64,000 nucleotides of DNA from Chiloscyllium plagiosum (Eukaryota). The notes below the pieces were generated by a model that was not told the DNA's origin, made no database searches, and was given only the letters and a program-made list of their open reading frames with translations. The position numbers were made by a program, and so were the translations under genes. This document shows, in pieces, positions 4,524 through 62,089 of the stretch (within the stretch, counting starts at the first letter, position 1; each line of letters starts with the position of its first letter). The stretch is from contig NC_057712.1 in the NCBI RefSeq assembly GCF_004010195.1, forward strand, positions 98,220,813 through 98,284,812. Direction: 5' to 3'.

Positions 4524-4529
4524 CTTGTC

Positions 4530-7660: not shown

Positions 7661-9960
7661 GTTAAAAATCACACAACACCAGGGGTTATAGTCCAACAGG
7701 TTTATTTGGAAGCACACTAGCTTTCAGAGCACTGCTCCTTCATCAGGTGATTGTCGAGGATAAGATCATAAAACACAGAATTTATAGCAAAAGCTTACAG
7801 TGTGATGCAACTGAAATGACCTGGATTGTTTGTTAAGTCTCTCATCTTTTAGAATGACCATGTTAGTTTCAGTTCTTTCATATGTAAATCGCAAAACCTT
7901 TTTTAAAGTTACATTCTCAAGTGAACTTTAACAATAGGTGCCAAGTCAGCTCAGATAATGCACTGAAGGTGTGAGGTGTCCTGTGTGAGGCTCTCTGTGC
8001 CCCAATTTCAGACTGGTTCTATTTCTTAAAAAGGGATTTACAGAATCTTACATGGATTAATGTAGTTTTTGAGCAGAATAAAATGTAATTCTGCAAGTAT
8101 AAATTCACCCCACAAACTTATATGCGGATGTGTATGCGTGGGGGGTGAGTGTATGTGTCTGTGAGAAAGTGTGTGTATGTGTGTGAATATAAAGGGGTAT
8201 AAGTCTGTGAGAGGGTGAGTGTAAAGGGTGTGTGTATGTGTGAATGCATGAGAGAGAGCCTGCATATGAGGGTCTATGTGAGTATATGGGTCTGTAGTAG
8301 TCTGTGTGTGTGTGTGTAGTGCAGTGGGATCACCTGGAGTGTGACATGAACCCAAGGTCCCGATTGAGGTCATCCCCATGGGTACCGAACTTAGCTATCA
8401 GCCTCTGTTTGGCCACTTTGCGTTGTTGCCTGTCCTGAAGTCTACCTTTGAGGACGGTCACCCGAAGATCCGAGGCTGAATGTCCCAGACCGCTGAAGTG
8501 TTCTCCGAGTCTGTTGATTTTTGTGCGGTGTCCATCCATCTGTCGCCGTAGCCTTTGCTCGGTCTCACTAAAGTACCATGCGTCAGGGCATCCTTGCCTG
8601 CAGCATATGAGATAGACAATATTGGCCGAGTCACATGAATACCTGCCACATACATGGTGGAAGGTGTCCCCACGCGTAATGGTGGTATCCATGTCCATAC
8701 TCTGACATGTCTTGCAGCATACCATGACAGGGTTGTATGGTGTTGTCCTGAAGGGCAGGCAGTTTGCTATGAAAAATGATCGGTTTGAGACTTGGTGGTT
8801 GTTTAATGGCAAGCAGTGGAGGTGTGGGTTAGGTCTTGGTGAGGTGCTCATCTTCATCGATAATGTGTTGCAGGCTGCGAAGAACATGGCGTGGTTTTCG
8901 GGTCCTGGAAAGTACTGAACAACGAAGGGTACCCTGTCGGTTGCAGCTCGTGTCTGTCTCCTGAGGAGGTCATTACGGTTTCTCGCTATGGCATGTCAGA
9001 ACTGGCGGTCGATTGGTTCAGCATCGTACTCCGTTCATATGAGGACATCCTTGAGTACTTCAAAGTGCTCGTCATGTTCTTCCTCATCTGAACAGATCCT
9101 ATGTACGCGCAGGGCTTGTCCATAGGGGATATGTTTTGGAATAGAAGCTGGAGAAGTGTAGCATCGTGAGGTAATCCTTGGGTTTGAGGTAGAGTGAGAT
9201 GCTGAGATACACATGCTTAATGGAGATGCATATGTCCAAGAATGAGACAGATAGTAGAGAGTAGTCCCTGGTGAGTTTCATGATGGGTTTAAACTCGTTG
9301 ATATCACTGTGTAGTTGTTTCAGCGACTCCTTGCCATGGGTCCAGAGGAAGAAAACGTTGTCAATATACCTGGCGTATAATGTTGGTTGGAGGTCCCACG
9401 TAGAGAAATCTTGTTCGAACCTGTGCATGAAAATGTTGGCATATTGGGGTGCAAATCTGGTCCCTATGACTGTTCCGTGTGTCTGGATGAAGAACTGATT
9501 GTCAAAGGTGAAAATGTTGTGGTTGGGGATAAAGCAGATGAGTTGCAGGATGAAGCTCAGAGATTGGCAGTTGTCGGTGTTGAGTACTGAGGCTGTTGCC
9601 GCGATGCTGTCATTATTGGGGCTGCTGGTGTAGAGTGCTGAAACGTCCATTGTGATGAGAAATGTTCGTAGTTCGATTGGTCCACGGGTGCTGAGTTTCT
9701 GTGAGAAATCCGTGGTGTCGCAACAGAAGCTGGGGGTCCCCTGTACAATGGGTTTCAAGATGCCTTTGACATAGCCAGAGAGGTTCTCACACAGAGTCCC
9801 ATTGCCTGATACAATGGGATGTCCTGGTTTTCTGGCTCTGTGTATCTTCAGAAGGCAGTAGAATCACCTACACGAGAAATATGTGGGATGAAGGTGCGAA
9901 GGGAACTCTGAAGGACTGGATCAAAAGTCTTGATCAATGTTTTTAGTTCACGGGTAGGGT
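7661..9960 (-). mobile_element. 5'-truncated Penelope-like element: RT, GIY-YIG endonuclease, (CA)n 3' UTR and terminal repeat
   Basis: ORF 9099-9758 has PLE RT motifs MDVSALYTS, QTHGTVIGTRFAPQYANIFM and YARYIDN (YIDD degraded); ORF 8330-8887 has GIY-YIG-type NIVYLICC..C..AWYFSET..RLR.QMDGHR. Confidence 0.92.
7715..7749 (-). ncRNA. Minimal type-I hammerhead ribozyme motif in the PLE terminal repeat
   Basis: Minus strand CAC-CUGAUGA-A-GGAGC-AGU-GCUCU-GAAA-GC-UA/GUG; stem I CAC/GUG, palindromic AGCU at stem III. Confidence 0.7.
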
Positions 9961-10269
9961 TACGTAGCCTCTGAACATGCCTTCACCTTTACAACCAATA
10001 AATGCATTTTCTGACTCACAGATACCATTATGTTCAGAAACAGTTATTAACAATTTCGGCAGTGCAGAATCTAACAAACCACAAAATAATAATTAGTTTG
10101 TCATTGATTTGAGTCAGATTAGCCCAGGAGTTGGGAAAACTCCCAAGTGTTCATCTAATAGGGTCACAACCATTTTTAAAAAGGGTTGATGTCTTGTGGA
10201 AACAACACCACTACCAACTGTGTGGCAAATGCTCACTGCAGACCTGCCAGTCAATCGACACGGGCAAAC

Positions 10270-10880
10270 TAAAATCTGACCAATCCCCTGGGCTTGGTGG
10301 CCTACATCCTGGGGTTTTAAAGGAAGTGGCAATAGAGGTTTTGCTTTTCCAGAATTCCTTAGATTTTAGAACACTCCTAAAGGGGGATTGGAAGATCAAA
10401 AGAACAACTCCATTATCCAAGTTAGGAGGAAGAGAGGAAACCAATAACTCTGGCTCAGTTAGTCTGGTGTCAGTGGTAAGGAAAATGGTTCAACCTATTA
10501 TTCACTGAGAAAATCATACTTATTTGGTGGGCTAACACAGATTTATGGAAGGGAAATTTGGTTGACAAATCAACTGAGTTTTTTTTTGAGGATGTAACCA
10601 GTAAGATGAAAAAATAGGAAGCAGTGATTATGATGTTGCTTAGATTTTCATAAAGTATTTGAGAAGCTATGACAACAGGTTATGACACAAAACTTGGACT
10701 CATTAGATAGGGGAATAATATTAGTATGGTTTGAGAATTGATGAATTGTAGAAAACAGAGCAGCAATTCATCAGCTACCTTCAGTATAGCAGAGTGTAAG
10801 GTGCTACAACAGTCACTGGTTGGGTTTAAGCTATTTACATTTTAAACAATGACTTAGAGATGAAGGGTCTGAGTGTAATA
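10270..10880 (+). mobile_element. Decayed CR1 RT fragment
   Basis: KSPGLGGLHPGVLKEVA-like and DWK..TTPL.K.GGRE...SVSLVSVVRK motifs in ORF 10131-10508. Confidence 0.8.
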
Positions 10881-10881
10881 T

Positions 10882-11245
10882 CACAGAATCCTTATAGTGT
10901 GGAAGCAAGCCATTCGGCCTCTTGAGTGCACACCGACCCTCCAAACAGCATTCCACTCAGCCCCTCCCCGCCCACACACACACACACACACTATCCCTGT
11001 AACCCTTCATTTCTCATGGCTAATCCACTTGGCCTGCACATCCCTGGACATTACAGGGCAATTTAGCATGGCCAATCCACTTAACCTGCTCATCTCTGGA
11101 TTTTGGGAGGAAACTGGAACACCCAGAGGAAACCCATGTGGATATGGGGAGAATGTGCAAACTCCACATAGTCACCCAAGGTGGAATCAAACCTGGGTCC
11201 CAAGCACTGTGAGACAGCAGTGCTAATCACTGAACCACTGTGCCA
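10882..11245 (-). mobile_element. HE1-type SINE
   Basis: Same body and tRNA-like head as 4221-4523. Confidence 0.85.
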
Positions 11246-13059
11246 TATATTCAACTTTGCTGACAAAATTAATTCTGAAACTGGATGCCCTCAATGAATA
11301 ATCTATCATTTTACTGTCACCTGTAAGTAATTCTTGCACATTTATTTTATATTTGACTTGATGACCATTGTACTAAAATTCCCACTGGGCAAAGCACAAG
11401 GCTGGAAGTGCAAATTTGTACAAATTACTCATAAAATCAAGCAAATGAAACTACTAATCCTCAAATTTAAGTCCTTCTCCTAGTCCTGTAGATATCCAAA
11501 TGAATCAGTACTGGACATTGTGCTGTTATTTAGTGAATATCCTACTTCATGTCAACTATTTTAAAAAGTACTTTCTAATAGAACAGAAGCATTTCAAGAA
11601 ATCCAGAACATTGAAAAGAAACCTGAGAAATTAAACAAAAAATAATCTTTATTTTATATGATCTTGAATGTAATTATCCCAAAGCAGGTATCTTCAATTG
11701 ATTCAGAACATGGCCAGTTGTAACTAAGGGCATCTAACGGGAGTGTTCAATTTGTTTTCTTCTCTTCAGGTGCTAATGGAATTGTGGTTTATTTTCAAAA
11801 TATTGTGTTTATTAGCAGCAAGTACGCTTGACACAATGAACATGGATTTGAACAGAAAAATCTGGGTGTCAAGAAATTTAGCAGTGAAGATGAAAAGCAA
11901 AGGTCTCCAAAAAAAATTACATGCAAATTGAGAGGCAGCTTAAAAATTTTAGGCTGCAGATAAGGAGAAAGTTTTTTTTAAGAGACCGAGCTTTTCATGG
12001 TGGCAGACTGAAAATAATCTGCTCAATCGGTTTGACCAGAGTGGCACAGACTCTCACAGAGTTATTTTCCCTTTGTCTCTTTCACTCACAGTTCTCCATA
12101 AAATAATGACACTCCTTACTGCTTTGATAACAGAGAGAGGAACTCACACGCTTTAAAATAAGGTACATTAGGTACATGGTATCACATGCAAGAAATTGGA
12201 GGAATTCTTAAATTCAAATGTTATTACTGTACAATGTAATAATTTGAATACAATTCCCAAGAAGGTGCTATAGCTGAAGACTGAATTATACATTTATACA
12301 TTATTTGGGAAAGAAAAGTATATATTTGGGAATCTAAAGTAATCGAAAAATTAACTAAGAAGTTTGCTCAACGTCATTAGGACACTGGAGGCACTGATTT
12401 GTTTCATATATTCTTAGCTGTATGTTGTAACTACATAATACTAATAACATTTATATAGTTTCAGGTTTGTTGGCAGCAATATTGCTTGTCTGTTTTCATC
12501 TGGTATTTCATTCCCACTTTGAAGTCTTTTGTCTCATGTACCTTGTTCCTTCACTGTCAATTGCTTCATATAAATCTGCTTTGTTTTCAGCAGTGGCATT
12601 CAAATAAGCAACGTAACTCACACATAGTGTTATAGTCAGCAGTCCAAAAGCCATCACAGGTTTATTCTGTTGCAGGAACACAGAGAAAGAAATTAAATAT
12701 TACCCAAAACAAATGGAACTTTCTTTGTCACGTGAAAAATATTGCTATTTTGAAAACTTTGACTTATCATACCACTTTAGAGAACAATTTATAAAATGTC
12801 ATGCCTCAGTGTACAATTATTGCCTTTCATAGAAACAATTTCTTTTATACTGACAAATTTTGTACTTTCAAACCAAAGGAAATTAAAGAACTCAGACCAC
12901 CAGGGTTGGATTTTCACATTGGTTTACAGGAGTAGGGACTACTTCTGGCTCCTGAACCTAATTCCACAGAAGGAAACAGTCATTTGTTGGGATTTTCATA
13001 GAGACACCCCCTTAATTGGCATGGAAACCAGTACACTGCCTAAGGACAGATAGCAGGCA

Positions 13060-13585
13060 GGATCTCAAAGCTGACGAAGCCAATATCTCTGTCTCAGGCT
13101 TGCTGCAGTGCTCCAGTGAAACTCAGCATAAGCTGGAAGCACAGCACCTTATTTTCCACTGGGGAACTACTCAGCTTTCTGAACTCACTATCGAGTTCAA
13201 CAATTTTAGGGTGTGAGGCACCTTCTCCCATGTCCTTACCCCAACCCCACATGCCAGGCATTGTTATCACATGGTCTGCTATTACACACCACCCATTGTT
13301 AAACACTAAATTGTCCCCATTAGTAGCTATTCATTCTTCTAGGCCGATTGTTATCCACTGCTTTGTCGTTCAAACTGTTCTTCTCTATTTTAGGGCTTTA
13401 TCTCCACCTATCCCCTTACGCGTTTCCCCCAACCTATCTTCTGCATAAAAACCAACTTTTCCTAGCTACCATGAGTTCTGAGGAAGGATCACCGGACCTG
13501 AAACATGAACTCTGATTTCTCTCCACAGATGCTGCCAGACCTGCTTCTGATTTCCAGCATCCGCAGTTCTTCTGGTTTTTTTATT
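13060..13585 (+). mobile_element. PLE 3' fragment (GIY-YIG C-terminus plus terminal repeat with a degenerate hammerhead at 13473-13512)
   Basis: SVSGLLQCSSETQHKLEAQHLIFHWGTTQLSELTIEFNNF; GAGUU-CUGAGGA..GAAAC-AUG-AACUC (stem I intact, cleavage triplet altered). Confidence 0.8.
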
Positions 13586-14732
13586 GCCAAATAGTGAACA
13601 GTTTATTACTATGAAGATGTCATCGTGAAGAAATGCCTTACATTTTATCAAACTCACTTCATGCTGACTGACAACCAGCACTGCAAAAAGACTCATGTAG
13701 CTCACTTGGTTCGAATGGAATCAAGGACAGAAGTAAAATAGCAGTGTGCCCATCTGTTACAAACTTCCATGAAAGCATGATGCAGGGCTGACAGTCTGCC
13801 AATAAAATTATGATTAGCCAGCAGAAATTTATTTGCAATGGAGGATAACAATATTTACTGCCTACCACTGAGTAATGAGACAGGCTGATATCAAACAAAG
13901 CTTGCCACAAAGCTCAGTAGGGTTGGGAAGAAGATTGTAAGTATGGAAGTAGGCACAATGTTGAACCTCCAACATGAGAGCCGGGTGTTCAATTGCCTTT
14001 TCTTGATTAACCCCGAAGACAATCCTAACTATTTAAAAGCAGAGCTGTCCAAATTTAAGTGGCAATTTCCTTACAGGTTTAATGAAGAGCTCTGGATTAA
14101 CAGCTCGGAAGAGACTGGTGGTTCGGATTCCTCTCAATCCTGGACTTTTGTAACCAGCACTCTTCGGGGGCTCTGTCTTGGCATCAGTCGGATCGGGTGA
14201 AGATGACATAGCTTACAACTGTCCAATTTATGAACCTGAGCACAAATATGGTAAACGTCGTTAAGGTAACAGATTATCCCCAAGATGCTTCATGGGAACA
14301 TTATAAAATAAATTATGACATTGAGCTATATAAGATCATTATCATTCAAATAACCAAAAGCTTCATCGAAAAAATAAGTAATAAGGAGTGTTTTCAAGGA
14401 AGAAACTGAGGTGGAAAGGATTACAAAAAGAATTCCAAAGGTCGCTGAAGGTGTGGCCATCACTGGTGGACTGGTTCAAATTGGAGACAGACACGAAGTC
14501 AGAACCAGAGGAGCATAGATATCCTGCAGAAGCGTGTGGTCAGAGGAAATTAGAAATAGGAATGGAAGCAGTCATGGAGAGATTTGAAAGAAGGATGAGA
14601 ATTTTAAGATCAAGATGATGCTTTATTGGGAGTCAATATGAGTACAAGGATGAACAGGATTTGGTGCAAGTTAGGAGATGGGCAGGAGGGTTTGGATGAC
14701 CTCGGGTTTAGAGTGGGTTGAATGGATGAATG

Positions 14733-15060
14733 GGAGGGTGGCTCAGTGGTTAGCATTGTCGCCTCACAAAGTCAGCGACACAGGTTTAATTCCAGCCTTG
14801 AGTCACTGACTGTGTGGAGTTTACACATTCTCACTGTGTCTGTGTGGGTCTCCTCCCACAGTTCAAAGATGTGCAGGTTAGTTTGACTGACCATGTTAAA
14901 TTGCCCATACTGTTGATGGATGTGTAGGTTAGGTGAATTTTTCATGAGAAATGCAGTGATACAGGAATATGGTCAGGAGGCGGGTGTGGGTGGGATGCTC
15001 TTTGAAAGGTTAAGTGCAGACCCAATGGGCCAAATTGGCTTCCAAATTCCAGGGATTCCA
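14733..15060 (+). mobile_element. HE1-type SINE (diverged)
   Basis: GGTGGCTCAGTGGTTAGCA head and V-SINE body. Confidence 0.8.
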
Positions 15061-17989: not shown

Positions 17990-19232
17990 ATTCAAGAGAA
18001 GTCATTCGTACTTGCTCCAAATCCACCAGCAAGATTCCCTGGAGATGCACCTATCCAGGCAAATGCGGAGTATTCCATCATACTCCTCACTCAAATATTG
18101 TTGGTGGTGCAAAAGCTAAGGGGAGTCAGGAGGTGAGTTATCCGCTGCAGTATTCTTAACCTCTGACCTGCTTTTGTATCCACTATGTTTATATGGCTAA
18201 TCCAGTTCTGATCGATTGTAACTCCCAAGATGTTGAAAATAGGGATTCAGTGATAGTAGTGCCATTGAATGTCAAAGGGTGTGGTTGGATCCATTCTTGT
18301 TGGAGAGCTCATTGACTGTCACTCATGCATCATGAATGCTATTTCCACTTCTCAGCCCCAACCTGGATAATGTCCAGGTCTTGCTGCACCTGGAATTGGA
18401 CTACTTTAGTATCTGAGGAGTTGTGACTGGTGCTGAACCTTGTGTGGTCACCAATGAACATCCCCACCTCTGACCTTATGATGGAGGGAAGGTTATTGTT
18501 GAATCACCTGAAGATGGGTGAACCTGGGACATTATCATGAGGAGCTCCTGCAGAGAAGTCCTGGAGCTGAGATTTCTAACCTCAAGCAACCACAACCATC
18601 TTCCTTTGTGTTCAATATTACTCCTGCCAGCAGAAGGTTTTCTCCTGATACCCATTGACTCCGGTTTTGCTGGGGCTCCACAATGCCACACGCAGTCAGC
18701 TGTGGCATTGGTGTCTTAGGCAGTCACTCATTTGTCTGTAGTATAGAATCCCGACAGTGTGGAAACAGGCCATTAGGCCCAAAAAGTCCACACCAACCCT
18801 CCAAAAAGTAACCCACCCAGATCCGTTCCCCTAACCTATTACATTACATTTACCCTAACTAATGCACCTAACCCACACATGCCTGAACATTATGGACAAT
18901 TCAGCATGACTAATTCACCTTAGCTGCATATCTTTTTACTGTGGGAGGAAACCAGAGCACGCAGAGAAAACCCATGCAGACAAGGGAAAATGTGCAAACT
19001 CCACACAGACAGTCGCCCGAGGCTGGAATCAAACCTGGCATTCCTGGTATTGTGAGGCAGCAGTGCAAACCACTGAGCCACCATGCTGCTGCTATGTTTG
19101 GAGCAAGGCTGAAATGAGGTCAGGAGTGGGGTGGTCCTGGTAGAATCCAAATTGGGTATCAGTGAGCAGGTTACTGCTAAACAAGTGCTGCTTGATAGTA
19201 CTGTTGATGGCACATTCCAATACCTTAGTGAT
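17990..19232 (-). mobile_element. CR1/L2-group LINE RT fragment interrupted by an HE1 SINE (18742-19088)
   Basis: Degraded RT remnants on the minus strand on both sides of a recognisable HE1 copy. Confidence 0.7.
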
Positions 19233-20451: not shown

Positions 20452-20920
20452 CTGAAAGGTGAGTAAATAGCCCATGTGTGTTTTAAAATGAAAAGGAAGG
20501 TAACTGATACATATCATTTCAAAATTATATCACATATTAAAATTACCATCTGGATTTTATATAATGGTCACAAAGACTGAAGCTGTTGTTAATTTGGAAA
20601 AAAAAACTATTTGAGATAAGCACTTTTTAAATTTTGCAATCACTCTGACTGGAACAGAGTGCAATATAGCAAAAATGTAATGGATATATTCAACACCTGT
20701 CATTCAAGAACATTGGTCAATTGAAGCGTGAGTTGCAGTTATAGGCAATTGTCATCAATACTCTGAATTATAAAGCCTCACTGGGAGCAGGGAAGTGTTG
20801 ACTTCAGTCTATATTTAGAATATGCAACTACTATACAGTCACTTCATTTGTTATAATTTCTAAAGGGTTAGAATACATAGAATACAAGGGCAAGGGTGGT
20901 ACTGCTGAGACTGTATAAGG

Positions 20921-21017
20921 GCTGAAAAATGCGTTGCTGGAAAAGCGCAGCAGGTCAGGCAGCATCTAAGGAGCAGGAGAATCGACGTTTCGGGCATAAG
21001 CCCTTCTTCAGGAAAAA
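20921..21017 (-). mobile_element. Short PLE terminal-repeat insertion with an intact hammerhead core, inside a CR1 fragment
   Basis: 16-bp TSD CTGAGACTGT(A/G)TAAGG at 20905-20920 and 21018-21033; minus strand CUGAAGA-A-GGGC-UUAU-GCCC-GAAA-CG-UC. Confidence 0.8.
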
Positions 21018-21524: not shown

Positions 21525-21740
21525 AACCCAAAATAATTGCCGATTGCTGTAAATCACAGAAACAAAAACAGAAGTTGCTGGGAAAGCTCAGCCGGTCTGG
21601 CAGCATCTGTGAAGAGAAATCAAAGTTCACATTTTGGGTCTGGTGAGGTAGGATCACTGGACCTGAAACATTAACTCTGATTTCTCTTCAGAGATGCTAC
21701 CAGACCTGCCAAGCATTCCCAGTAACTTCTGTTTTCATAA
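21525..21740. mobile_element. Fold-back PLE-derived short element inserted in a CR1 tail (CR1 ~21190-21990, minus)
   Basis: Inverted arms of ~85 bp; 11-bp TSD CATCCTGGTGA at 21514-21524 and 21741-21751. Confidence 0.8.
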
Positions 21741-22850: not shown

Positions 22851-23605
22851 GTTGCATACTCCACTTGTCCAGATCCTCTATCTAAACCTGTCGCCTATTT
22901 TCTAAGGATTTGTATCCCTCTGCTCCCTGCCCATTCATGTATCTGCCTGGAGACATCTTAAATGATGCAATTGTTCCCTCCCCTACCACCTCCACTGGCA
23001 ATGTGTTCCAGGCCCCCATCACCTTCTGCGTGAGGAACTTTCCATGTATATCTCCCCTAAACATTTCCCCTCTCACTTTGAACTCATAACCCCTAATAAT
23101 TGAGTCCTCCACTCTGGGAAAGAGTTTCTTGCTATCCACCCTATCTACACCTCTCATGATTTTGTAGGCTTCAATCAGGTTCCCCCCAAACCTCTGTCTT
23201 TTTAAGGAAAATAATCCTAATCTATTCAGTTGCATACTCCACTTGTCCAGATCCTCTATCTAAACCTGTCGCCTATTTTCTAAGGATTTGTATCCCTCTG
23301 CTCCCTGCCCATTCATGTATCTGCCTGGAGACATCTTAAATGATGCAATTGTTCCCTCCCCTACCACCTCCACTGGCAATGTGTTCCAGGCCCCCATCAC
23401 CTTATGCATGAGGAACTTTCCATGTATATCTCCCCTAAACATTTCCCCTCTCACTTTGAATTCATGACCCCTAATAATTGAGTCCTCCACTCTGGGAAAG
23501 AGTTTCTTGCTATCCACCCTATCTACACCTCTCATGATTTTGTAGGCTTCAATCAGGTCCCCCCAAACCTCTGTCTTTTTAAGGAAAATAATCCTAATCT
23601 ATTCA
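22851..23605. repeat. Direct tandem duplication of a ~378-bp unit (CR1 3' end)
   Basis: 22851-23228 and 23229-23605 are near-identical, with a few substitutions and one 1-nt indel. Confidence 0.95.
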
Positions 23606-24506: not shown

Positions 24507-25000
24507 TGAAAATGTGTTGCTGGAAAAGCGCAGCAGGAAGTGGGAGGATTGGAAAGAGAAGTTGTTCAGGGTGAGGACCAGTTCAGTCAGTCGAAGGAGG
24601 GTGTCAGTGGAAGGGTACTGGTTGGTACGGCGGGAAAGGAAGAAGCGGAGGGCTTTGAGTCCTTCGTGATGGGGGATGGAGGTGTACAGGGACTGGATGT
24701 CCATGGTGAAGATAAGGCGTTGGGGAACGGGGAAGCGAAAATCATGGAGGAGGTGGAGGGCATGGGTGGTGTCCCGAACGTAGGTCGGGAGTTCTTCGAC
24801 TAAGGGGGACAGGACCGTGTCAAGGTATGCGGAGATGAGTTCGGTGAGGCAGGAGCAGGCGGATTCAATGGGTCCTGAAGAAGGGCTTATGCCCGAAACG
24901 TCGATTCTCCTGTTCCCTGGATGCTGCCTGACCTGCTGCGCTTTTCCAGCAACACATTTTCAGCTCTGATCTCCAGCATCTGCAGACCCCACTTTCTTCT
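24507..25000. mobile_element. Rearranged PLE insertion: short inverted end, RT fragment (minus) and terminal repeat with hammerhead (plus)
   Basis: 13-bp TSD TATGTATCCTATC at 24494-24506 and 25001-25013; RT motif MDIQSLYTSIPH. Confidence 0.88.
24870..24907 (+). ncRNA. Minimal type-I hammerhead ribozyme motif
   Basis: GGGUC-CUGAAGA-A-GGGC-UUAU-GCCC-GAAA-CG-UC/GAUUC: intact core, 5-bp stem I (two G-U), GUC triplet. Confidence 0.7.
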
Positions 25001-26689
25001 TATGTATCCTATCCCCTAGTATCTTCTGCAGTAGCTTCGCTATCACTGACATCAGGTTTACAGGTCTGTAACTACCTGGATTATTCCTGCTACCCTTCTG
25101 AAACAAGGGGACAACATTAGCAATTCTCCAGTCCTCTGGGACCTCACCCGTGTTCAGAGACTGTACTGTATTGAACCACCAGACAAAGTGTGATGTTGAG
25201 GAGACATTTTATGGCTCAGGTTGGCCACATTGGAAGACTTAGTTGCATTGCAGATACACTGGGCATCATGACATGTTGGTCTTACCCCTACCTCTACACA
25301 GAGTAAAGCACCACTGTCCTGCTCCCATCTGCATGACATTTCATGAAAGATCAATGACTGTGGATCTCCAGCACTTTTTCCGCATCTTGAGGGTAACCTT
25401 GGCTGGGAAATCTGCACTTGGAGACAACTCTACATCCACTGAAGGTTGGTGCTGGTCCTGAGCTGGTGCATGTGTTCCTCACAAATTCTGGTTGATACCC
25501 ATAGCGTGGCAAACACAGAGACAATATCAGCTTCTGTGCTGGATCTATTGGGAATGGTTCCAGTGAGCCTTTGTGGACAATTCAGAAACAAAGCAGTTCC
25601 TCGATAATTTGATCATTCAGCAGTCACAGACATTGTCCTACAAACAATGGGACATGGATACCTCCAACAAAGAGGCCAGTGTGATGCCTCTACATGGACC
25701 TTTTATATCAGAGACCTGATTCAGAAGTAAGTGATGCAAGCTGTGTGGCACATATGCAGAAGGAGTGGTAAACGAAATAGGAACTTTTTCCCCTCCCTCA
25801 CCCATACATCACCCAAGAAAGGTAGCATGCAAAATAGGCTAAATATGTACACATTTTGTGCACCAAGGTGTGAGGGGGAACAGTTACTGGACCCTGTGCA
25901 GGCTATAAGACCTTGGAATGTTATTGCAAACTGTTGAACTGAGGGAGTATTTGCTTGATATTTATTGTGTTTCACCAGTACCGGGATTAATTGATAATGT
26001 TCAATGACATGGTCCTTTTGGTATGAAAGCAGCATCCTGTTTTTTGGTAAACTGCGAATGTTGCTCCTGAATAGTAGCAGCATGGATCAGGCAGCACGGA
26101 ACAGGCATCTTCACCTGTTGCTCAAACTTTTGGGATCCCTTCTCTTTTTGGGGTAATCTGAGGTAGAAAGTAAAGATCCCCCCTAAAGTCAACAATGATG
26201 CTGGTCCTGGGGAATGACCACATTTGGATCTGTCCAATGAAAAGAAGTCTTGACTTTCCACTTTTTGTAGGAGAACTCAGAACCATTAGACATTGTGAAT
26301 GCCCATTGCCAATTAAGCTAATTGATTTTGTTAATAAATTACTTATTAATAAACTGCCAGTGTTAACTATCTGAAGCACAATGATCTCCATACTGTAGTT
26401 TTCGGTATTGTGTCTGCTGTTGGCTCGTGATCTGTGTACTACAAATAACATGAACCAGTGAACCTGTGAAGTAGCCCAATGACTCACAAGTTCCACTTTC
26501 TACGTTCTTCCTGCTTTGACAAAGAAGTGTAATGCTTTCTGTCTCCGGGTGTGTAACAATGATTAACTCAGAGATTTATACTTCCTTGGAGTGATCTAAT
26601 ACAGGAAAGATTTGTCATTTGCTGAAATCAATAATCAATGAGGCATAAAACTGAAAAAGGGATCATGCTGTAAGGTTGAGTGAAATAGG

Positions 26690-27187
26690 AGTTGATGGGA
26701 AGGGTGAGGGCAGTAACAAATTAAAAATACCATACATGGATACACAAAGCATTAGAAATAAGATGGATGAGCTTGAGGCTCTTTTGGAAATTGGCAGATA
26801 CAATATTGTGAGGATAACTGAGATGTGGCTTCAAGTGGACAGGGCCTAGGAAATGAATATTCAAGGCTACACGTGCTATCATAAGGACAGACCGACGGGC
26901 AGAGGGGGTGGGGTGGCCATGTTGGTAAGGGATGATATTCAGTCCCTTGCACGGGGGGACCTAGAACCAGGGGATGTAGAGTCAGTGTGGATACAGCTGA
27001 GAAATTCTAAGGGTAAAATGACCCTCTTGGGAGTTATCTACAGGCCCCCAAACAGTAATCTGGATGTCGGATGTAAGTTGAATCAGGAGCTGAAATTGGC
27101 CTGTCGCAAAGATGTTACTACAGTTGTTATGGGGGATTTCAACATGCAGGTAGACTGGGAGAATCAGGATGGTATTGGACCTCAAGA
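26690..27187 (+). mobile_element. CR1 ORF2 AP-endonuclease region running into an assembly gap
   Basis: ITEMW, GRGGGVAMLV, LGVIYRPPN, VMGDFN. Confidence 0.92.
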
Positions 27188-31307: not shown

Positions 31308-31493
31308 GCGAATCCTCTTGCAACGTCACATTTCCAACGCCCCTTCCCCAAGTCCCTCCTCCCTACCTTTTATCTTAGCCTGCTGGACACACTTTCCTCA
31401 TTCCTGAAGAAGGGCTCATGCCCGAAACGTCGATTCTCCTGCTCCTTGGATGCTGCCTGACCTGCTGCGCTTTTCCAGCAACACATTTTCAGC
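31308..31493 (+). mobile_element. PLE terminal-repeat fragment with an intact hammerhead core (31400-31436)
   Basis: CUGAAGA-A-GGGC-UCAU-GCCC-GAAA-CG-UC; same family as 24875-25000. Confidence 0.8.
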
Positions 31494-41500: not shown

Positions 41501-41969
41501 CTGTGCCTTTTAGCTACTTATCAGGTGTCTTGTGGTACAGTGGTAGTGTCCATGCTTCTGAATTTAGTAGGCCTGGGTTCAAGTCCCACCTAGTCCAGAG
41601 GTGTGTAATAGCATTTCTGAGCAGATTGATTAGAAAATAGTCAATTACTTTTTAGGATGACTTATTATTGTTAACATTAAGCTGTTTTTTGGAAAGGAAA
41701 GGGAGATTGCATGCCTACGCTGCTTTCAAGAGAGTTTACATTTAAGAGCTCCATGTGTATTGGGTACACAATACTGCAAGTTTGCCTGTCAGTTAGTTTG
41801 TTATAGGTTTGTAAGCTGCAAGAAATCAATTGGTTTGTTGTAATGTCTGCCTCATAGCTTGCAGTAAAATTCTTTGTTTTAAATAAACTAACCCACAAAG
41901 TTGAGAGGAGGTGATGGTCTGGTGGTTTTATGTGAACTTGGAGATAGTGAGGACTGCACATGCTTGAAA

Positions 41970-42160
41970 GTCAAAGTTGGTAAAGTGTGGAGCTGGAAAA
42001 AAACACAGCAAGTCAAGCAGCATCAGAGGAGCAGGAGAGTCGACAATTCAGGATGGGACCTTTAATCAGGACTCAAGTCCCGACCTGAAACATTGACTCT
42101 CCTATTCTTCTGATGTTGCTTGACTTGCTGTGCCTTTTCCAGCTCCACACTTTATCGACT
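41970..42160. mobile_element. Fold-back PLE-derived element with a degenerate hammerhead (42037-42074, minus)
   Basis: Inverted arms AAAGTGTGGAGCTGGAAAA../..TTTTCCAGCTCCACACTTT; stem I GAGUC/GACUC. Confidence 0.75.
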
Positions 42161-46884: not shown

Positions 46885-47545
46885 GGTAGGGGGGGTGGGG
46901 AGGGTAAGGAATAAACAATAGGTATGGATAGAGTCCAAAGGGAGAGAAAAGAACAGTTAGACAGAGATTGGATAACGATCTGGCTAGGAGGGTGAATAGC
47001 TGTTAATGGAGACTGTTAGTGGCTAACAATGGGTTGTGTGTTTTGAAGGAGCTCGTGTTGGACTAGGTTAGACAAAGTTAAAAATCACACAACACCAGGT
47101 TATAGTCCTGGAAGAAGTAGTGCTTTGAAAGATAGTGCTTCCAAGTAAATCTGTTGGTCTATAAACTGGTGTTGTGTGATTTTTAACAATGAGTTGTGTG
47201 TAATTGCAGACAATGTGAAAACAAGGCCTGGTGTGGGGTTTGGCGTAAGGACATGGGAGATCTCGAGCCCTAAAGTTAGTGAACTTGACATTGAGTCCAG
47301 AGGGCTGCAGGGTCCCTGAGTGGAAAATGAGATGCTGTTCTTCCAGCTTGTGCTGAGGTTTGCTGGAGCACTGCAGCAAGCCTGAGACAGAGATGTTGGC
47401 CAGGGAACAAGGTCCTGTGTTGAAGTGGCAGGTAACCAGGAAATCAGGTTTTTTTTTGTGGGCAGAGCACAAGTACTCTGCAAAACAGTCACCCAGTCTA
47501 TGCCTCATTTCTTCAATGTCAAGGAAACCACATTACGAGCAGCAC
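46885..47545 (-). mobile_element. PLE GIY-YIG 3' fragment containing a nested fold-back element (47041-47183)
   Basis: RHRLGDCFAEYL..VTCHFN..SVSGLLQCSS..KLEEQHLIFH.GTLQPSGLNV; 17-bp TSD TAACAATG(G/A)GTTGTGTG at 47024-47040 and 47184-47200. Confidence 0.85.
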
Positions 47546-48044: not shown

Positions 48045-48697
48045 CATGAATAGGAACTTGTCTTTGGGATTATGGCCAGCATACCTATTCCCAAGGTGGT
48101 GCAACAACTCATTAGTGCACTACCACTGCTTGCCAAAACTCTACAAATTCCCTTCTGGATTGCTTGCAACAAGCATCTGAGTCCGTCATTGCTGGAAGTT
48201 CCCAGACAATCAGAGAGGTTGGTCAATTAATGACTGCTCAGTATCTCATTAATTAACATAGATGCAGATTCAGAAATGGAAGATGTTATATCTTTTCCGG
48301 CTTGAAATACTTGACAATGTTATGAAGAGAGTAATCATAGAAATGTTGAGGTACGTTATATAGGCCCTCTCATTTATCCATTGTTGATGTTATTTTATTA
48401 ACATTTCTCTCGCTCTTTCACAGATACAGTTAAAAATCACACAACACCAGGTTATAGTCCAACAGGCTTATTTGGAAGCACTCATGAATAGGAACTTGTC
48501 TTTGGGATTATGGCCAGCATACCTATTCCCAAGGTGGTGCAACAACTCATTAGTGCACTACCACTGCTTGCCAAAACTCTACAAATTCCCTTCTGGATTG
48601 CTTGCAACAAGCATCTGAGTCCGTCATTGCTGGAAGTTCCCAGACAATCAGAGAGGTTGGTCAATTAATGACTGCTCAGCATCTCATTAATTAACAT
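48045..48697. repeat. Complex local duplication A-B'-A
   Basis: 48045-48259 matches 48483-48697; intervening 48259-48482 matches 49695-49914. Confidence 0.95.
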
Positions 48698-48794: not shown

Positions 48795-49040
48795 AAACAG
48801 AACTGCAAATGCTGGCAATCAGAAACGTAAGTAAAAACAGGAACTGCTGGAAAAGCTCAGCAGATCTGGCAGCATCTGGGGAGAGAAAACAGTGTTAAAG
48901 TTTCAGGTCCAGTGATCCTTCTTCAGAGGAAGACAGTAGTCTGATGAAGGGTAACTGCACCTGAAACGTTAACTCTACTTTGTATCCTCAGATGCTGCCA
49001 GACCTGCTGATCTTCTCCAGCAATTCTTAATTCTGTTTAA
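48795..49040. mobile_element. Fold-back PLE-derived element with hammerhead-like cores on both arms
   Basis: Plus strand CUGAUGA..GAAACGUU at 48941-48970; inverted copy at ~48895-48926. Confidence 0.75.
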
Positions 49041-49568: not shown

Positions 49569-49860
49569 CTAGGAATATTTGTGTCACACTAGTTATCTTA
49601 TCAGTTTATGTACATCCATCAAAACTCAAGATTAGGTAATATAAATTCTTCCTCTCGCAGGCACCACTGTTGTTCACCAAGTACATGGATGATTTAGATG
49701 CAGATTCAGAAATGGAAGATGTTATATCTTTTCCGGCTTGAAATACTAATGTTATGAAGAGAGTAATCATAGAAATGTTGAGGTACGTCATATAGGCCCT
49801 CTCATTTATCCATTGTTGATGTTATTTTATTAACATTTCTCTCGCTCTTTCGCAGATACA

Positions 49861-50051
49861 GTTAAAAATCACACAGCACCAGGTTATAGTCCAACAGGCT
49901 TATTTGGAAGCACTAGCCTTTGAACCACTGGATGAAGGAGCAGCACTCTGAAAGCTAGTGCTTCTGAATAAACCTGTTGGACTATAACACGGTGTTGTGT
50001 GATTTTTAACATTGTCCAGCCCAGTCCAACACCGGCTCCTCCAAACCATGA
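49861..50051. mobile_element. Fold-back PLE-derived element (same family as the 7661 terminal repeat)
   Basis: Arms GTTAAAAATCACAC../..GTGTGATTTTTAAC; 14-bp TSD CTTTC(G/A)CAGATACA at 49847-49860 and 50052-50065. Confidence 0.85.
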
Positions 50052-50334: not shown

Positions 50335-50544
50335 TGCTGGAAATGTGTTGCTGGAAAAGCGCAGCAGGTCAGGCAGCATCCAAGGAGCAGGAGAATCGAC
50401 GTTTTGGGCATGAGCCCTTCTTCAGGAAAGGGCTCATGCCCGAAACGTCGATTCTCCTGCACTTTGGATGCTGCCTGATCTGTTGCGCTTTTCCAGCAAC
50501 ACATTTTCAGTTCTGATCTCCAGCATCTGCAGTCCTCACTTTCT
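50335..50544. mobile_element. Fold-back PLE-derived element
   Basis: ~80-bp inverted arms meeting at the hammerhead core; 15-bp TSD CCTGTCGATT(G/A)CTAT at 50320-50334 and 50545-50559. Confidence 0.88.
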
Positions 50545-51236
50545 CCTGTCGATTACTATGTCAACTTTGGGCTGTCTGATGATTTGAATTACTTCTGTAA
50601 CTGACCAGTGCTAATTGCACTCTTGACTGACTGGATGCATCAGAAGTGGACAAATATAGTGAGCTGCCAGGGAAGAGGACAGGGATAATGCAGGTGCCAT
50701 GTGGGTGAAGGGCAAGGATAATAACTCTGCTGCACAGGATACAGATAAATTATTTCTTAGGGATGTTTAGAGGAGAATACTGGTAAATGTCTGAGATAAT
50801 GCTTGGCTCATTGGCAGGCACTCTGGAAATGTTTGCATCCACTGTCAAGGGTCAGAGAGAATATCAAAACCAACTTTGCATGTGGTTTTTCGCAATGCTT
50901 AGAGCTCATCCTTTCCAGCAGGCCCATTTATGCACTCAGCCCCAATACAGGGGTTGATGGTGGATGTTGTAATTTCCATTTCAACACAAATGGCAGCTAT
51001 CTAATTGTTGAGTTTTCTCCTTCGCATTGGAATGATTTATTTTAATTCCTAAACCTGTTAACTTTGTGGTGTGCTGAGCTCAGTTGCCAGTCTAGTGCTA
51101 GTTTGTGGCATATTCACATACACACTTAGGTCTAAGGCATGGTTAAATTCAAGTTTTAAAGCACTTTCTAAATTGGTTTAAATCTTCGGTGCCAGAAATT
51201 AAATGAGAATATCTGAAGTTACTGTTCAACACCTTT

Positions 51237-53294: not shown

Positions 53295-54469
53295 GTAAGA
53301 AATAAATTACAGTGTTACCTAAAGGTAAATGTGTTATCCCAACACCATCACATAAAAACAGACTTACAGGATTATAATGATCTCCTTCCCAATATGTAAT
53401 GTTAAAACTAGCTATAATCATTAATGCCTAACATTAATCTTGCGTCTCCGCATCTTAATAAACTCTTGGTCCCAAAGACGTGAATATTGAGCCCTGTTTC
53501 TCTGGCATCTTTTTTCCCTCTTTCAGTAGCCTGTCTTGATCTAGACTTGTTGCTTTGATGACTGCAGCACATATAAAGTCAATGTGTTAAGCTGCAGACA
53601 ATAGAAATTCTGGGCGGAGTTATGAGAGCTGTGGAGATGAGGTTGGGAGCAGGATCTGGAGAGAAATCAGACAGGTCTACAGCAGCTTGCCCTCATCACC
53701 CTCTATCCATGCCACCAGTACACTTTAAGTTATTTTTTGTGTTTCCAAGATGACACCTCACAATCCCCTATCTGCACTGACACTGCCTGACTTTGCAGTG
53801 ATGGTACTGGCTAGCTAGAGCATTAGGAATTCCCCATTTGCCATCCTTAATTCAGCTGGGCTTTCAGATGGACTCCTCTTTATTGCCATTTCTAAGTACA
53901 TCTGTCAGGTGGACGGGACTCACAAATTGTTGGGGTCAGAGCTTTATCTCCAATGGAAGAATATTTTCAAAGTTGGACAGGCTCCACTTGCAGAGAGAGA
54001 AGTTTAATAAATATCTTGTGTCTCTTGCACAGGATGAAACACACCCTGTCTATGAAATGGCTTTCAGGTTCAAACCGATTTATCCACATCATGATGTAAA
54101 ACTCCTATATATAATTGACAAGGAACTGCCTAGTCAATCATTTGGAATTTGAATAAGCAGGAGCAAAAGGTGGAGTAAAATACCAAACCCTCAAGTAGAT
54201 TTCATAATGAGAAGGTACACAAAATTCTTTGAGAATGGCCCCAAGGATAACCTGCTGATATCTATTACTGGAGCAAGGAAATCCATTCTTTAAAATAGAA
54301 CTTTGAAAGTAGAAAAATGAAATGCCATTTTTACCCTCATTCCATGCTGCTTTATCGTTCATTCATTGCTGGCAATGGGAAGGCATAAAATCTCACAGCA
54401 CTGTCGCTGGGTTCAATGTAACAATGCTGAAATTCCTACATTGTGAATGTAGACAAGGGGGAATAGCTA

Positions 54470-54640
54470 GGTGAAAGTGAGGATTGCAGATGTTGGAAAT
54501 TAGAGTCAAGATTAGAGTGGTGCTGGAAATGCACAGCAGGTCAGGCAGGATCCGAGGAACAATAAAATTGACGTTTCAGGCAGGAGCCCTTCATCAGGAA
54601 TGAGACTGGAAGCCTTGGGGGTAGAGACATAAAAGGGGGA
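54470..54640 (-). mobile_element. PLE terminal-repeat fragment with an intact hammerhead core (54567-54601)
   Basis: Minus strand AUUC-CUGAUGA-A-GGGC-UCCU-GCCU-GAAA-CG-UC. Confidence 0.75.
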
Positions 54641-57454: not shown

Positions 57455-58522
57455 CGGTCATGTTGTAGATTCATACAGCATAGAAACAAATACTTTGGCC
57501 TAACTTGTCCAGGCCGACCACATTTCCAAACTAAACTAGCCCCATTTAGATTGGATTCCCTACAATATGGAACAGGCCCTTCAATATGGAACGAGTCCAT
57601 ACTAACCCTCCCAGACCCATTCCCCATGCACCTAATACTATGAGCAATTTAGTTTAGCCAACTCACCTGACCTGCACATTTTTAGATTGTGGGAGAAAAC
57701 ACATACAGACAATGTGCAACCTCCACACAGTCAGTTGCCCAAGGCAGATATTAAACCTGGATCCCTAGTACTGCGAGGCAACAGTGCTGATCACTGAGCC
57801 ACCATGCTACCCTTTGGCCCGTATCCCTCTAAACCTTTTCTATTTGTGTACCTGTCCAAATGTCTTTATAAATATTGTAACTGCACCTGCATTCACCACT
57901 TCCTCTGGCTGTTCATTCCACATACAAATCACCTTCTGTGTGAAAACGTTTCCCTCAGGTGCCTTTTAAACCTTTCTCCTCTTACCTTAATAATTATATT
58001 CTTTAGTTTTGAATTCTCCAATCCTCAGGAAAAGAGTCAACAGTGTGGTTCTGGAAAGGCACATCAGGTCAGGCAACATCCTAGGAGCAGGAAAGTCAAC
58101 ATTTCAGGAAAAAGCCCTTCATCAGGAATCCTAGGGAAAAGACCATAGCCATTCATCTTATCTATGCCCCTCATTATTTTATAAACCTCTTTTAGGTTAC
58201 CTCTCAACCTCCTATGCTCCAGTGAAATAAGTCTCAGCTTATCCAGCCACTCCTTCTAACTCAAACCCTCCAGTCCTGGTAACATCCTTATAAATCTTTT
58301 CTGAACCCTCTCCAATTTAATAATATCCTTCCTATAGCAGGGTTACAAGAACTGTACATAATATTCCAAAAATGTCCTCATCAACCTTCTGTACAACCAC
58401 AACATGACGTCCAACCCCTACACTCAATGGTCTGAGCAATGAAGCCAAATGCCTTCTCTACCCAGTCTACCTGTGACACCACTTTCAATAAACTATGGAC
58501 TGGCATCCTTAGGTTTCTCTGT
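57455..58522 (-). mobile_element. CR1 3' end with a nested HE1-type SINE (~57546-57807) and a PLE terminal fragment (~58030-58130)
   Basis: Recognisable tails and heads; hammerhead-like core on the minus strand at ~58093-58130. Confidence 0.8.
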
Positions 58523-58621: not shown

Positions 58622-58912
58622 TTGGGGTGGCATGGTGGCTCAGTGGTTAACACTGCTACTTCAGAGCACAAGAGACCTAGGTTCAAATCCTGCCTTGGGC
58701 AGCTATCTGTGTGGAATTTGCACATTCTCCCCATATCTGTGTGGGTTTCCTCCCACAGTCCAAAGATGTGTGGGTCAGGTGAATTGGCCATGCTAAATTG
58801 CCCATAGTGTTAGGTGGCTTAGTCAGGGTAAATATAGGGGTCTGGGTGAGTTGGTGTGGACTTGTTGGGCTGAAGGGCCTGTTTCCATACTGTAGGGAAT
58901 CTAATCTAATTT
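58622..58912 (+). mobile_element. HE1-type SINE
   Basis: tRNA-like head and (ATCTA)n tail. Confidence 0.9.
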
Positions 58913-59957: not shown

Positions 59958-60229
59958 GTGACTGTTATGGACATGTTGTCTATCTATGATGCCAAAACAT
60001 GTCCCTGGGAGCTGTGCCTTAATAGAGTGTGTAACAAAGATCCATTGGACTTGCTCCTAGATGGTCTGATGAGGAAGGATTGGTTAGAATAAGGAGATTG
60101 AGATGAGTGAGTTTGAGTGATGTTACTGAGGTGGAATTAGACAATATCATCGAGGTCGCAAACATGAGGGTGGGAGTTCATCTTGGGAGCAAATGTATCA
60201 CTGGGGTGGGAACAGACTGTCTTAATCTC

Positions 60230-60356
60230 TGATGAAGGGCTTTTGCCCGAAATGTCGATTTTCCTACTCCTCAGATGTTGCCTGACCTGCTGTGCTTTTC
60301 CAGCACCACTCTAATCTAGACTCTGACCTCCAGTATCTGTAGTCCTCACTTTTGCC
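60230..60356 (+). mobile_element. Short PLE terminal-repeat insertion starting at the hammerhead core
   Basis: 13-bp TSD CTGTCTTAATCTC at 60217-60229 and 60357-60369; CUGAUGA-A-GGGC-UUUU-GCCC-GAAA-UG-UC. Confidence 0.85.
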
Positions 60357-60719
60357 CTGTCTTAATCTCAAATTGTTCAAAGATTCATGGTCAATGAAGT
60401 GTTGATATATCACAATGATGAGAAAGGCACAGCATAAATATAAAACCTCTTTATTTGAAGACTTTCAGGCTTTGGAGAAACAGCAGCCATGATGAACTCT
60501 GTCATAATTAGAATCTAAATCTTTCCATCTCTGGAGCGCTGGAGGCAGGCGTGTGACCAAAGATGAGGGTCAGATTCTCAAACAGTCCCAGTGCATTGAC
60601 CTCCATGGGGAATGTCCAGGTACTTGCAACTCCCAATTCTGGTTTATTTAGCTGAAGTTGGAATGTGTGGTACTGGAGGAGTGTGGAGATTTTGGATGTT
60701 GGAAACACAGGGCCCCTTG

Positions 60720-61270
60720 AGTATATGAATAGGAAGAGTTTGGAGGGATATGGGCTGGGTGCTGGCAGGCAGGACTAGATTGGTTTGGGATATCTGGTCA
60801 ACATGGATGGGTTGGACCGAAGGGTGTGTCTCCATGCTGTACATCTCTATAACTCTATGACTCTGTCTGCAACTTTGAGTCAGAGATTGCAGGCAGATCT
60901 GACTAATGTTCCTGAATTGATATCCAGGAACCATTAGATCAAATTTAGGGTGACACAGTAGCTCAATGGTTAGCACTGCTGCCCTCACAGTGCCAGAGAC
61001 CAAGGCTCGATTCCACCACTGGGTGACTGCCTGTTTGGAGTTTGCACATTCTGCCCATGTCTGTGTGGGTTTCCGCCCACAGTCCAAAGATATGCAGGTT
61101 AGGTGAATTAGCTGTGCTAACTTGCCCATAGTGTTCAGGGATGTGTAGGTTAGGTGCATTAGTCAGGGGTAAATGCAGAGTAATAGGATAAGGGAATGGG
61201 TCTGGGTGGGTTACTCTTCAGAGGGTCGGTGTGGACATGTTAGGCTAAATGGCTTGTTTCACAGGAATTC
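60720..61270 (+). mobile_element. CR1 tail (60720-60862) followed by an HE1-type SINE (60947-61270)
   Basis: Matches other copies in the window. Confidence 0.85.
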
Positions 61271-61893
61271 CTTTGTTGCAATGAGGTGATTTACACAAAA
61301 TTTGGCAATTCTGACATTGGTTACAAAATTGCATGTTTAATATTCCATTGTCCAATGTTTATATTAAATATTCATCGTAGGGAAACATGAAATTTGTCTC
61401 TGATTTGATTTTGGATGGTATTAATTAAATTTATGAAAAGAGAACACAATGAAATTGAATGGTGTATTTGCTAAAGATTGCTGCAGACTTCATATCTGTC
61501 AACAAAATTTGCACTGAATTAAAATTCGATTGTCAAAACCAGTTTTTTCTATTTACAGTGTTAGTAGATCTGTCAATAGAGAGTCATTTTGATTCAAATG
61601 CATAACAATATTCCCCTGTGAAATTAAGTAAATCGATATGATATTTTAAATTACAAAAAAATCCTATGTTAGACTAATTCAAAAATATTCTTGCATTTTG
61701 GATTGGAACTCTCAATTAAACCATTCCATACATTGATTGACTTTAATTTAAAATGTAGGATCTACAATAATAAAGTTTGTATCATATAAAAGAAACAAAT
61801 CATTGATCATGTACGCATTTCTACTGGAATTATCATACACTCAGTACCTCATATAATGAGACAATGCATATTATACAATTCCTAATCTGACAA

Positions 61894-62089
61894 GGTTAAA
61901 TATCACACAACACCAGGTTATAGTCCAACAGGTTTAATTGGAAGCAATAGCTTTCGGAGCAACGCTCCTTCATCAGGTGCTTGTGCTCTGAAAGCTAGTG
62001 ATTCCAATTAAACCTGTTGGACTATAACCTGGTGTTATTTGATTTTTTAACTTTGTACACTCCATTCAAACTCTGGCATCTCCAAATCA
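61894..62089. mobile_element. Fold-back PLE-derived element with a hammerhead motif (minus, ~61942-61982)
   Basis: 11-bp TSD TAATCTGACAA at 61883-61893 and 62090-62100; AAGCAC-CUGAUGA-A-GGAGC-GUU-GCUCC-GAAA-GC-UA/UUGCUU. Confidence 0.85.

What the first reader, a model, noticed from the sequence alone, without database searches (positions are those of the whole stretch)
7715..61982. About a dozen minimal hammerhead ribozyme motifs from at least three families, with covarying stem I
Seen: the pattern [stem Ia]-CUGANGA-A-[stem II hairpin]-GAAA-NN-UH-[stem Ib] recurs at 7715(-), 13473(+), 20979(-), 24870(+), 31400(+), 42037(-), 48941(+), 50395(-), 54567(-), 58093(-), 60229(+) and 61942(-); several copies have mutated cores. 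Stem I differs between families but stays paired: CAC/GUG, GAGUU/AACUC, GAGUC/GACUC, and GGGUC/GAUUC (this last 5' arm lies at a rearrangement junction). Stem III is reduced to a palindrome (AGCU or ACGU). Established: Penelope-like elements carry minimal type-I hammerheads that can cleave as dimers, and an extra nucleotide after CUGANGA is a tolerated variant. Inference: copies with intact cores could still self-cleave when transcribed; at this density the genome would hold a very large ribozyme population.
Basis: partly seen in the sequence, partly recalled or inferred. Interest (0 to 1): 0.7.

Follow-up and report, generated by a model that had tools for sequence, protein, structure and literature searches.

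The report
Penelope retroelement stubs with minimal hammerheads
These motifs are real copies of a tiny self-cutting-RNA (hammerhead) motif already known from Penelope-like jumping genes, mostly broken or missing one stem, and the place where the copies begin, just in front of the motif and often with an extra G, likely marks the capped start of the element's RNA rather than a cut.

Summary
All 12 motifs are present and far above chance. They are the terminal repeats (pLTRs) of three families of Penelope-like retrotransposons (RT plus GIY-YIG upstream), a ribozyme class described in 2014. Genome-wide there are at least 78,800 exact matches, and an estimated 290,000 intact cores. Only 2 of 12 sites combine an intact core with three contiguous stem I pairs, and the commonest subfamilies carry a U-U mismatch at pair 3. 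Most copies are 90-130 nt stubs, and 44% are adjacent inverted pairs, so a large active ribozyme population is not supported. Copy 5' ends pile up at the ribozyme's front (114 of 270), not at the cut site (9). An extra G precedes the start at -4 in 58 of 100 copies (19 of 100 one base later) and at -8 in 6 of 6 in a second family; TATA-like boxes lie about 30 nt upstream. This likely records reverse transcription running off the cap of uncut RNA. This scan noted the same pattern on other DNA. No cleavage was shown.

The parts
7715..7749 (-). Family B minimal hammerhead, intact core, native 3-bp stem I (CAC/GUG), predicted cut after 7718; best candidate in the window
7660..9863 (-). Decayed 5'-truncated family B Penelope-like element: RT (9099-9863), zinc linker and GIY-YIG region (8330-8995), pLTR with hammerhead, short 3' end at 7660
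   Evidence: RVT_1 E 2e-4, below cut-off; E 2e-9; E 1e-32
13415..13559 (+). Family C pLTR piece; core 13478-13507 with non-cleavable triplet AUG; native stem I is 4 bp AGUU/AACU
20915..21014 (-). Family A1 stub starting at -3; intact core 20984-21011, 2-bp stem I
21525..21735 (.).
24534..24869 (-). Family A RT fragment inverted against the 24870 stub; it supplies the GGGUC '5' arm'
   Evidence: (about 95% identity to many genomic copies)
24870..25005 (+). Family A1 stub starting at -2, intact core 24875-24902, long 3' end; 5-bp stem I is a junction accident
31326..31493 (+). Family A1 pLTR piece with native upstream; core 31404-31431; stem I C-G, U-A, U-U, A-U; TTTTATC box about 31 nt before the A at 31400
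41942..42160 (.). Old family A inverted pair; core at 42042-42069(-) mutated in both boxes
47039..47187 (.). Decayed family B inverted pair
48799..49023 (.). Family C inverted pair with cores 48897-48926(-) and 48941-48970(+), both starting at -1, 1-bp stem I
49860..50051 (.). Family B inverted pair, core at 49929(+) mutated
50336..50547 (.). Family A1 inverted pair; core 50398-50425(-) has AAAA for GAAA; folds as a 93-bp hairpin
54469..54601 (-). Older family A copy; core 54570-54597, first stem I pair broken
58045..58129 (-). Older family A stub starting at -4 with a G in front; core 58098-58125
60217..60344 (+). Older family A copy; core 60229-60256, 1-bp stem I
61890..62090 (.). Family B inverted pair; core 61948-61976(-), first stem I pair broken

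Best explanation
The motifs are the minimal type I hammerheads in the terminal repeats of three families of Penelope-like retrotransposons, and most copies are short 5'-truncated insertions that likely arose when reverse transcription, starting about 85 or 120 nt behind the ribozyme, ran off the capped 5' end of an uncut element RNA that is predicted to begin 4-8 nt in front of the core. Shown: the position behind RT and GIY-YIG, two clustered 3' ends, the 5'-end pile-up, the extra G, the upstream TATA-like boxes, and the between-family covariation. Inferred: the transcription start, the cap origin of the G, and that in the parent element the ribozyme cleaves only as a dimer or with the element's protein. 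The dispersed copies are likely passive fossils rather than working ribozymes.
For: RT and GIY-YIG upstream of the motif in long copies, with a CX4CxxC linker. In 100 evenly spaced 10-kb stretches, 242 of 270 copies end in two clusters (+75..100: 115; +110..134: 127), matching the two RT start sites and tail reported for the anole element (PMC11167929). 114 of 270 start at -12..+6 (6.0 per nt) against 9 at +26..+31 (1.5 per nt) and 37 at +7..+25 (1.9 per nt). Before the A at -4, 58 of the 100 listed matches have G (26% expected, p 2e-11); one base later 19 of 100 (Fisher 2e-8). Family B: G in 6 of 6 copies starting at -8. TATAAA lies 32 nt (B) and 29 nt (C) before these starts, TTTATC 31-33 nt (A). 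The anole ribozyme needs protein, and unprocessed RNA is the main insertion substrate in vitro (PMC11167929).
Against: No RNA 5' end was mapped; the one RNA run that covered the family showed both strands and no start or end pile-up. In non-inverted junctions alone the G excess is modest (9 of 18, p 0.03). G was 3 of 7 in family C and 0 of 4 in A2. Starts at -3 are as common as at -4 (8,640 vs 8,721) and 24 of 30 of them are inverted junctions, often with microhomology. Family D's TATA at -53 does not fit its starts at -2 (4 of 12). No intact pLTR-ORF-pLTR unit was found among 20 long-ORF loci. The G counts come from the first 100 matches on one contig.
Confidence: 0.62

Rival explanations
1. 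Same identity (PLE hammerheads), but the pile-up comes from the RT stalling or switching template at the folded or protein-bound ribozyme, with fold-back priming and microhomology; it says nothing about the transcription start.
For: 24 of 30 junctions at -3 and 11 of 30 at -4 are inverted, and several reuse 2-5 nt of the inverted arm. Starts are spread over about 19 nt. Head-to-head inverted copies and palindromic junctions are known PLE features (PMC8557442, PMC3846280).
Against: Stalling does not explain a G excess at one position per family, at a constant distance from a TATA-like box, nor 19 of 30 non-inverted junctions at -4.
Confidence: 0.25
2. One reading: many dispersed copies with intact cores self-cleave when transcribed, as cis or trans dimers, giving a very large active ribozyme population.
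For: About 90 intact cores per Mb, 30 of 86 with three or more contiguous stem I pairs. The family is present in an RNA run on both strands. Starts at the cut site (468 matches) exceed neighbouring positions (273 and 103).
Against: Monomers showed no cleavage and dimers low cleavage (PMC4209133). Only 39 of 270 copies have a same-strand partner within 4 kb, 119 are adjacent inverted pairs. 22 of 30 cut-site junctions are inverted, several explained by GA microhomology, and only 6 of 30 have unique flanks. No read pile-up at the cut site (weak test).
Confidence: 0.08
3. The short copies are a separate non-autonomous element (retrozyme or SINE-like) that amplifies itself through small circular RNAs.
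For: Very many 90-130 nt copies; animal retrozymes derive from pLTRs (bioRxiv 10.64898/2026.07.22.740005).
Against: No tandem array of these units in the window; adjacent direct pairs are 23 of 270; 5' ends are ragged and 75 of 270 copies run on into the native pLTR or ORF; stubs lack the upstream TATA-like box.
Confidence: 0.05

Closest known systems
[quoted passage not shown]
   Same: [quoted passage not shown]
   Different: Copy number is far higher (at least 78,800 exact; about 290,000 estimated) than the 4,000 and 9,000 given for coelacanth and Xenopus, though descriptors differ. Helix I is 3-4 bp, with a fixed U-U at pair 3 in the two commonest subfamilies. No shark and no 5'-end pile-up is mentioned in the parts read.
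Poseidon element of Anolis carolinensis (PAc), Frangieh et al. 2024 (PMC11167929; parts 1-2 of 4 read)
   Same: Two clustered 3' ends with a 30-40 nt tail; hammerhead in the pLTR; uncut RNA as insertion template.
   Different: Family A carries a CX4CxxC linker (Neptune/Nematis type), not the Poseidon layout. That paper maps 3' ends, not a 5' run-off with an extra G.
Complex insertions of EN+ PLEs (Penelope/Poseidon, Neptune, Nematis), Craig et al. 2021 (PMC8557442; passages) and Arkhipova et al. 2013 (PMC3846280; passages)
   Same: Strong 5' truncation, adjacent inverted copy, optional tail; a putative TATA box and Inr-like sequence in a rotifer pLTR.
   Different: Here the stubs are reduced to 90-130 nt and their 5' ends cluster at the ribozyme front.
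Non-LTR retrozymes of animals (bioRxiv 10.64898/2026.07.22.740005; part 1 of 5 and passages)
   Same: Type I hammerheads related to pLTRs; reported in one chondrichthyan.
   Different: Retrozymes are tandem arrays with a hammerhead in each unit; these copies are solo or inverted.

Membership tests
min-HHR of metazoan PLEs | CUGANGA and GAAA boxes with NUH and no helix III | tested here: met
   9 of 12 listed sites intact; 86 hits in 957 kb vs 2-5 in controls
min-HHR of metazoan PLEs | Extra nucleotide after position 9 and palindromic 15.2-16.2 | tested here: met
   84 of 86 and 55 of 86; all 9 native clusters palindromic
min-HHR of metazoan PLEs | Short helix I with covariation between families | tested here: met
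   Pair 1 C-G/A-U/U-A, pair 2 U-A/A-U/C-G, pair 3 C-G/G-C/U-A in 9 clusters of native copies; exception U-U at pair 3 in A1 (23 of 23) and A2 (16 of 16). Only four independent families; no formal statistic.
min-HHR of metazoan PLEs | Self-cleavage as dimer or with protein | not testable with these tools
   No assay; DNA footprint at the cut site inconclusive
EN+ Penelope-like elements | Single ORF with RT followed by GIY-YIG endonuclease, pLTR behind it | tested here: met
   L123: RVT_1 E 1.5e-6 and GIY-YIG E 2.7e-4, both just under Pfam cut-offs; L116 RVT_1 above cut-off; window 8330-9863 matches both parts. Family C's ORF was not sought.
EN+ Penelope-like elements | Optional 30-40 nt tail and adjacent inverted truncated copy | tested here: met
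   Two 3'-end clusters, 242 of 270; adjacent inverted 119 of 270
EN+ Penelope-like elements | Partial tandem pLTR-ORF-pLTR unit | tested here: inconclusive
   None intact in 20 long-ORF loci, most with assembly gaps; no shared continuation behind 129 long 3' ends
Neptune/Nematis clade | CX2-5CxxC linker between RT and EN | tested here: met
   CX4CxxC at residues 502-510 of L123; not found in frame in L116 and L124
Neptune/Nematis clade | Placement in an RT phylogeny | not tested
   No tree built
Non-LTR retrozymes | Tandem array with a hammerhead in consecutive units | tested here: not met
   No such array in the window; 23 of 270 adjacent direct

The most novel reading that the evidence does not exclude
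In these Penelope-like families the hammerhead is the first 32-37 nt of the capped transcript: the 5' arm of stem I doubles as the initiator, which would explain both the 3-4 bp stem and the tolerated U-U. Tens of thousands of stubs are cap run-off products of internally primed reverse transcription on uncut RNA, so the genome itself records the start site and the rarity of cleavage.
Probability: 0.5. Interest if true: 0.55.

Novelty: new member of a known kind. Interest (0 to 1): 0.36.

Why it matters
The role of these hammerheads is still open (PMC8557442 calls it unclear). If the 5'-end pile-up and extra G mark the capped start, they give a predicted transcription start for three families and in vivo support for the in vitro result that uncut RNA is the template. 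Subfamilies A1 (U-U) and A3 (U-A) differ at one stem I pair and form a natural test of whether weaker pairing goes with greater spread.

Tried and rejected
Rfam scan at E<=10: no hammerhead family matched, only miRNA-type hairpins on the inverted pairs; Rfam models do not cover this minimal form at that threshold. PDB search with L123: no match. Run search: no RNA holder listed. Reads of X21 lay on both strands with no start or end pile-up, X22 gave none, and the organism label may differ from this genome's, so this was no test of cleavage. Cut-site footprint: 468 matches at +28 vs 273 at +27 and 103 at +29, with unequal pattern degeneracy; after removing inverted and native cases (6 of 30, 2 of 15, 5 of 15 unique) the excess is about twofold on small numbers; inconclusive. 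L111 and L117 looked like two-hammerhead units 3,013 and 2,612 nt apart, but unrelated DNA follows the first motif. The MAFFT alignment misaligned family D, so pairs were counted in a script instead; no covariance model was built. RNAfold of four monomers never gave the hammerhead fold, and 24867-24910 prefers a different hairpin. Literature searches for shark + Penelope + hammerhead, pLTR + start/initiator, bamboo shark + Penelope and capped/non-templated returned no report of this pattern; subscription papers, Repbase/Dfam entries and the supplements of PMC4209133 were not seen.
Full report
1. Observation. The window lies in a 3.56-Gb animal genome; that it is a shark is my recall of the repeats and the wording of earlier notes, not a tool result. 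All 12 motifs are there. A descriptor for core, stem II and NUH finds 10 sites in the window and 86 in 957 kb of 100 evenly spaced stretches from the 20 largest contigs, against 2, 5 and 4 in Markov controls and 2 in reversed sequence. That is about 90 per Mb, or roughly 290,000 intact cores if the sample is typical (my extrapolation). Exact patterns give 63,689 (family A), 14,834 (B) and 308 (C) matches with zero in the reversed controls.

2. The stems. CAC/GUG at 7715 is native. GGGUC at 24870 is supplied by an inverted RT fragment fused at -2. GAGUC/GACUC at 42037 belongs to a copy with both core boxes mutated. GAGUU/AACUC at 13473 has a non-cleavable AUG triplet, and the family's own stem is 4 bp. 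Using 92 native-context hits out of 331 distinct hits (84 fall in 9 clusters of two or more), stem I is: A1 C-G, U-A, U-U, A-U (23 copies); A2 the same (16); A3 C-G, U-A, U-A, A-U (7); B C-G, A-U, C-G (four clusters, 25 copies); C U-A, U-A, G-C, A-U (6); D, absent from the window, A-U, C-G, G-C (7). So covariation between families is real, on four independent families, while the commonest subfamilies carry a fixed U-U. In the window 9 of 12 listed sites have intact boxes and 2 of 12 also have three contiguous stem I pairs; in the sample 30 of 86 do.

3. What carries them. In long family A copies the motif lies behind an ORF with RT and GIY-YIG (both Pfam scores on L123 are just under the curated cut-offs) and a CX4CxxC linker, the Neptune/Nematis mark according to PMC8557442 (passages). 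In the window the 7715 motif closes a decayed RT (9099-9863) and endonuclease (8330-8995) that match L123 at E 1e-32 and 2e-9. These are pLTR hammerheads of Penelope-like elements as described in PMC4209133. No ORF was sought for family C, and no intact pLTR-ORF-pLTR unit was found.

4. Shape of the copies. Of 270 family copies in the sample, 242 end in two clusters about 35 nt apart, as for the two internal RT start sites of the anole element (PMC11167929). 119 are adjacent inverted pairs, 78 solo, 34 inverted within 4 kb, 23 adjacent direct and 16 direct within 4 kb (stretches are 10 kb, so edge copies count as solo too often). Four inverted pairs in the window fold into hairpins of 74-93 bp at -104 to -165 kcal/mol, which would bury the cores.

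5. Where they begin. With the first C of the core as 0, 114 of 270 copies start at -12..+6, 37 at +7..+25, 9 at +26..+31 (the cut site), 35 later and 75 earlier. For A1, 8,721 matches have a non-native base before the A at -4 and 10,453 keep 11 nt of native upstream; none of 30 inspected -4 loci kept native upstream. That base is G in 58, A in 30 and T in 12 of the 100 listed (my count), against G in 19 of 100 for starts at -3 (my count; tests). Among non-inverted junctions G is 10 of 19, or 9 of 18 after dropping one duplicate. Family B gives G in 6 of 6 at -8 and A3 2 of 3 at -4, but C only 3 of 7 and A2 0 of 4. TATAAA sits 32 and 29 nt before the B and C starts and TTTATC 31-33 nt before the A starts; D does not fit. 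That an extra G is the trace of a reverse-transcribed cap, and that TCATT/TCAGT/CCACA resemble initiators, is recalled knowledge, not a call.

6. Mechanism. Most likely the element is transcribed from a promoter in the pLTR, starting 4-8 nt before the core (inferred). The element's protein primes cDNA 85 or 120 nt behind the core (shown for the anole element, matched here by the 3' ends). When this happens at the first pLTR of an uncut RNA, the RT reaches the cap after 90-130 nt and either finishes or folds back into an inverted second arm (inferred). The ribozyme was under selection in the parents, as the covariation shows, and would cleave only as a dimer or with protein help (PMC4209133, PMC11167929). 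The cut-site footprint is small and inconclusive: 468 matches at +28 against 273 and 103 beside it, 22 of 30 of them inverted junctions. One RNA run showed the family on both strands with no pile-up of ends, which tests little.

7. Known and new. The motif class, its host and the insertion layout are published. The copy number, the U-U subfamilies and the start-site signal were not found in four searches (one search was the general search), with the limits given under Tried and rejected. Earlier notes of this scan report the same pile-up, extra G and TATA motif on other pieces of this genome and in other genomes; they are unchecked AI notes and are not counted as evidence. The extra-G search was sent in the same turn as that look-up; the TATA and cut-site checks were run after it. 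Papers seen: PMC4209133 and PMC11167929 parts 1-2 of 4; bioRxiv 10.64898/2026.07.22.740005 part 1 of 5 and passages; PMC8557442, PMC6155905, PMC2377424, PMC3846280 and PMC8455134 passages only; no supplements.

8. Verdict. Real, and a new high-copy member of a known kind. The start-site reading is the part worth a bench test. Interest 0.36.

Noticed in passing
L143:2946 and L140:521 (genome sample; not in the window): A fourth hammerhead family (D) with a longer stem II and stem I variants GCA/UGC, CCA/UGG and UCA/UGA; 12 copies in 957 kb.
   Followed up: partly
window 48045-48697 and 49695-49914: 48045-48259 is repeated at 48483-48697 (99.5%) and 48259-48482 at 49695-49914 (96.9%). The family B stub at 48428-48482 starts beside the cut site only because of this duplication breakpoint; possibly an assembly artefact.
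   Followed up: partly
window 22851-23605: Two-copy 378-bp tandem duplication (98%) inside a LINE-like RT 3' region; recent duplication or assembly artefact.
   Followed up: no
window 34843-36390, 23291-24505, 26850-27185, 33827-34100: Fragments of an abundant LINE with RT and endonuclease-like frames (CR1-like by recall); its 3' end recurs more than ten times in the window.
   Followed up: no
window 4220-4524, 10885-11246, 14731-15011, 18743-19089, 32797-33113, 44374-44683, 57546-57816, 58622-58911, 60945-61260: A dispersed 300-bp repeat family, SINE-like by recall, 65-81% identical between copies.
   Followed up: no
window 27712-28308: 36-bp minisatellite of about 17 copies beside assembly gaps.
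   Followed up: no
L116, L113, L126: In some family A copies a reading frame stays open through the pLTR and the hammerhead core itself; probably frameshift chance in low-stop pyrimidine-rich DNA.
   Followed up: no
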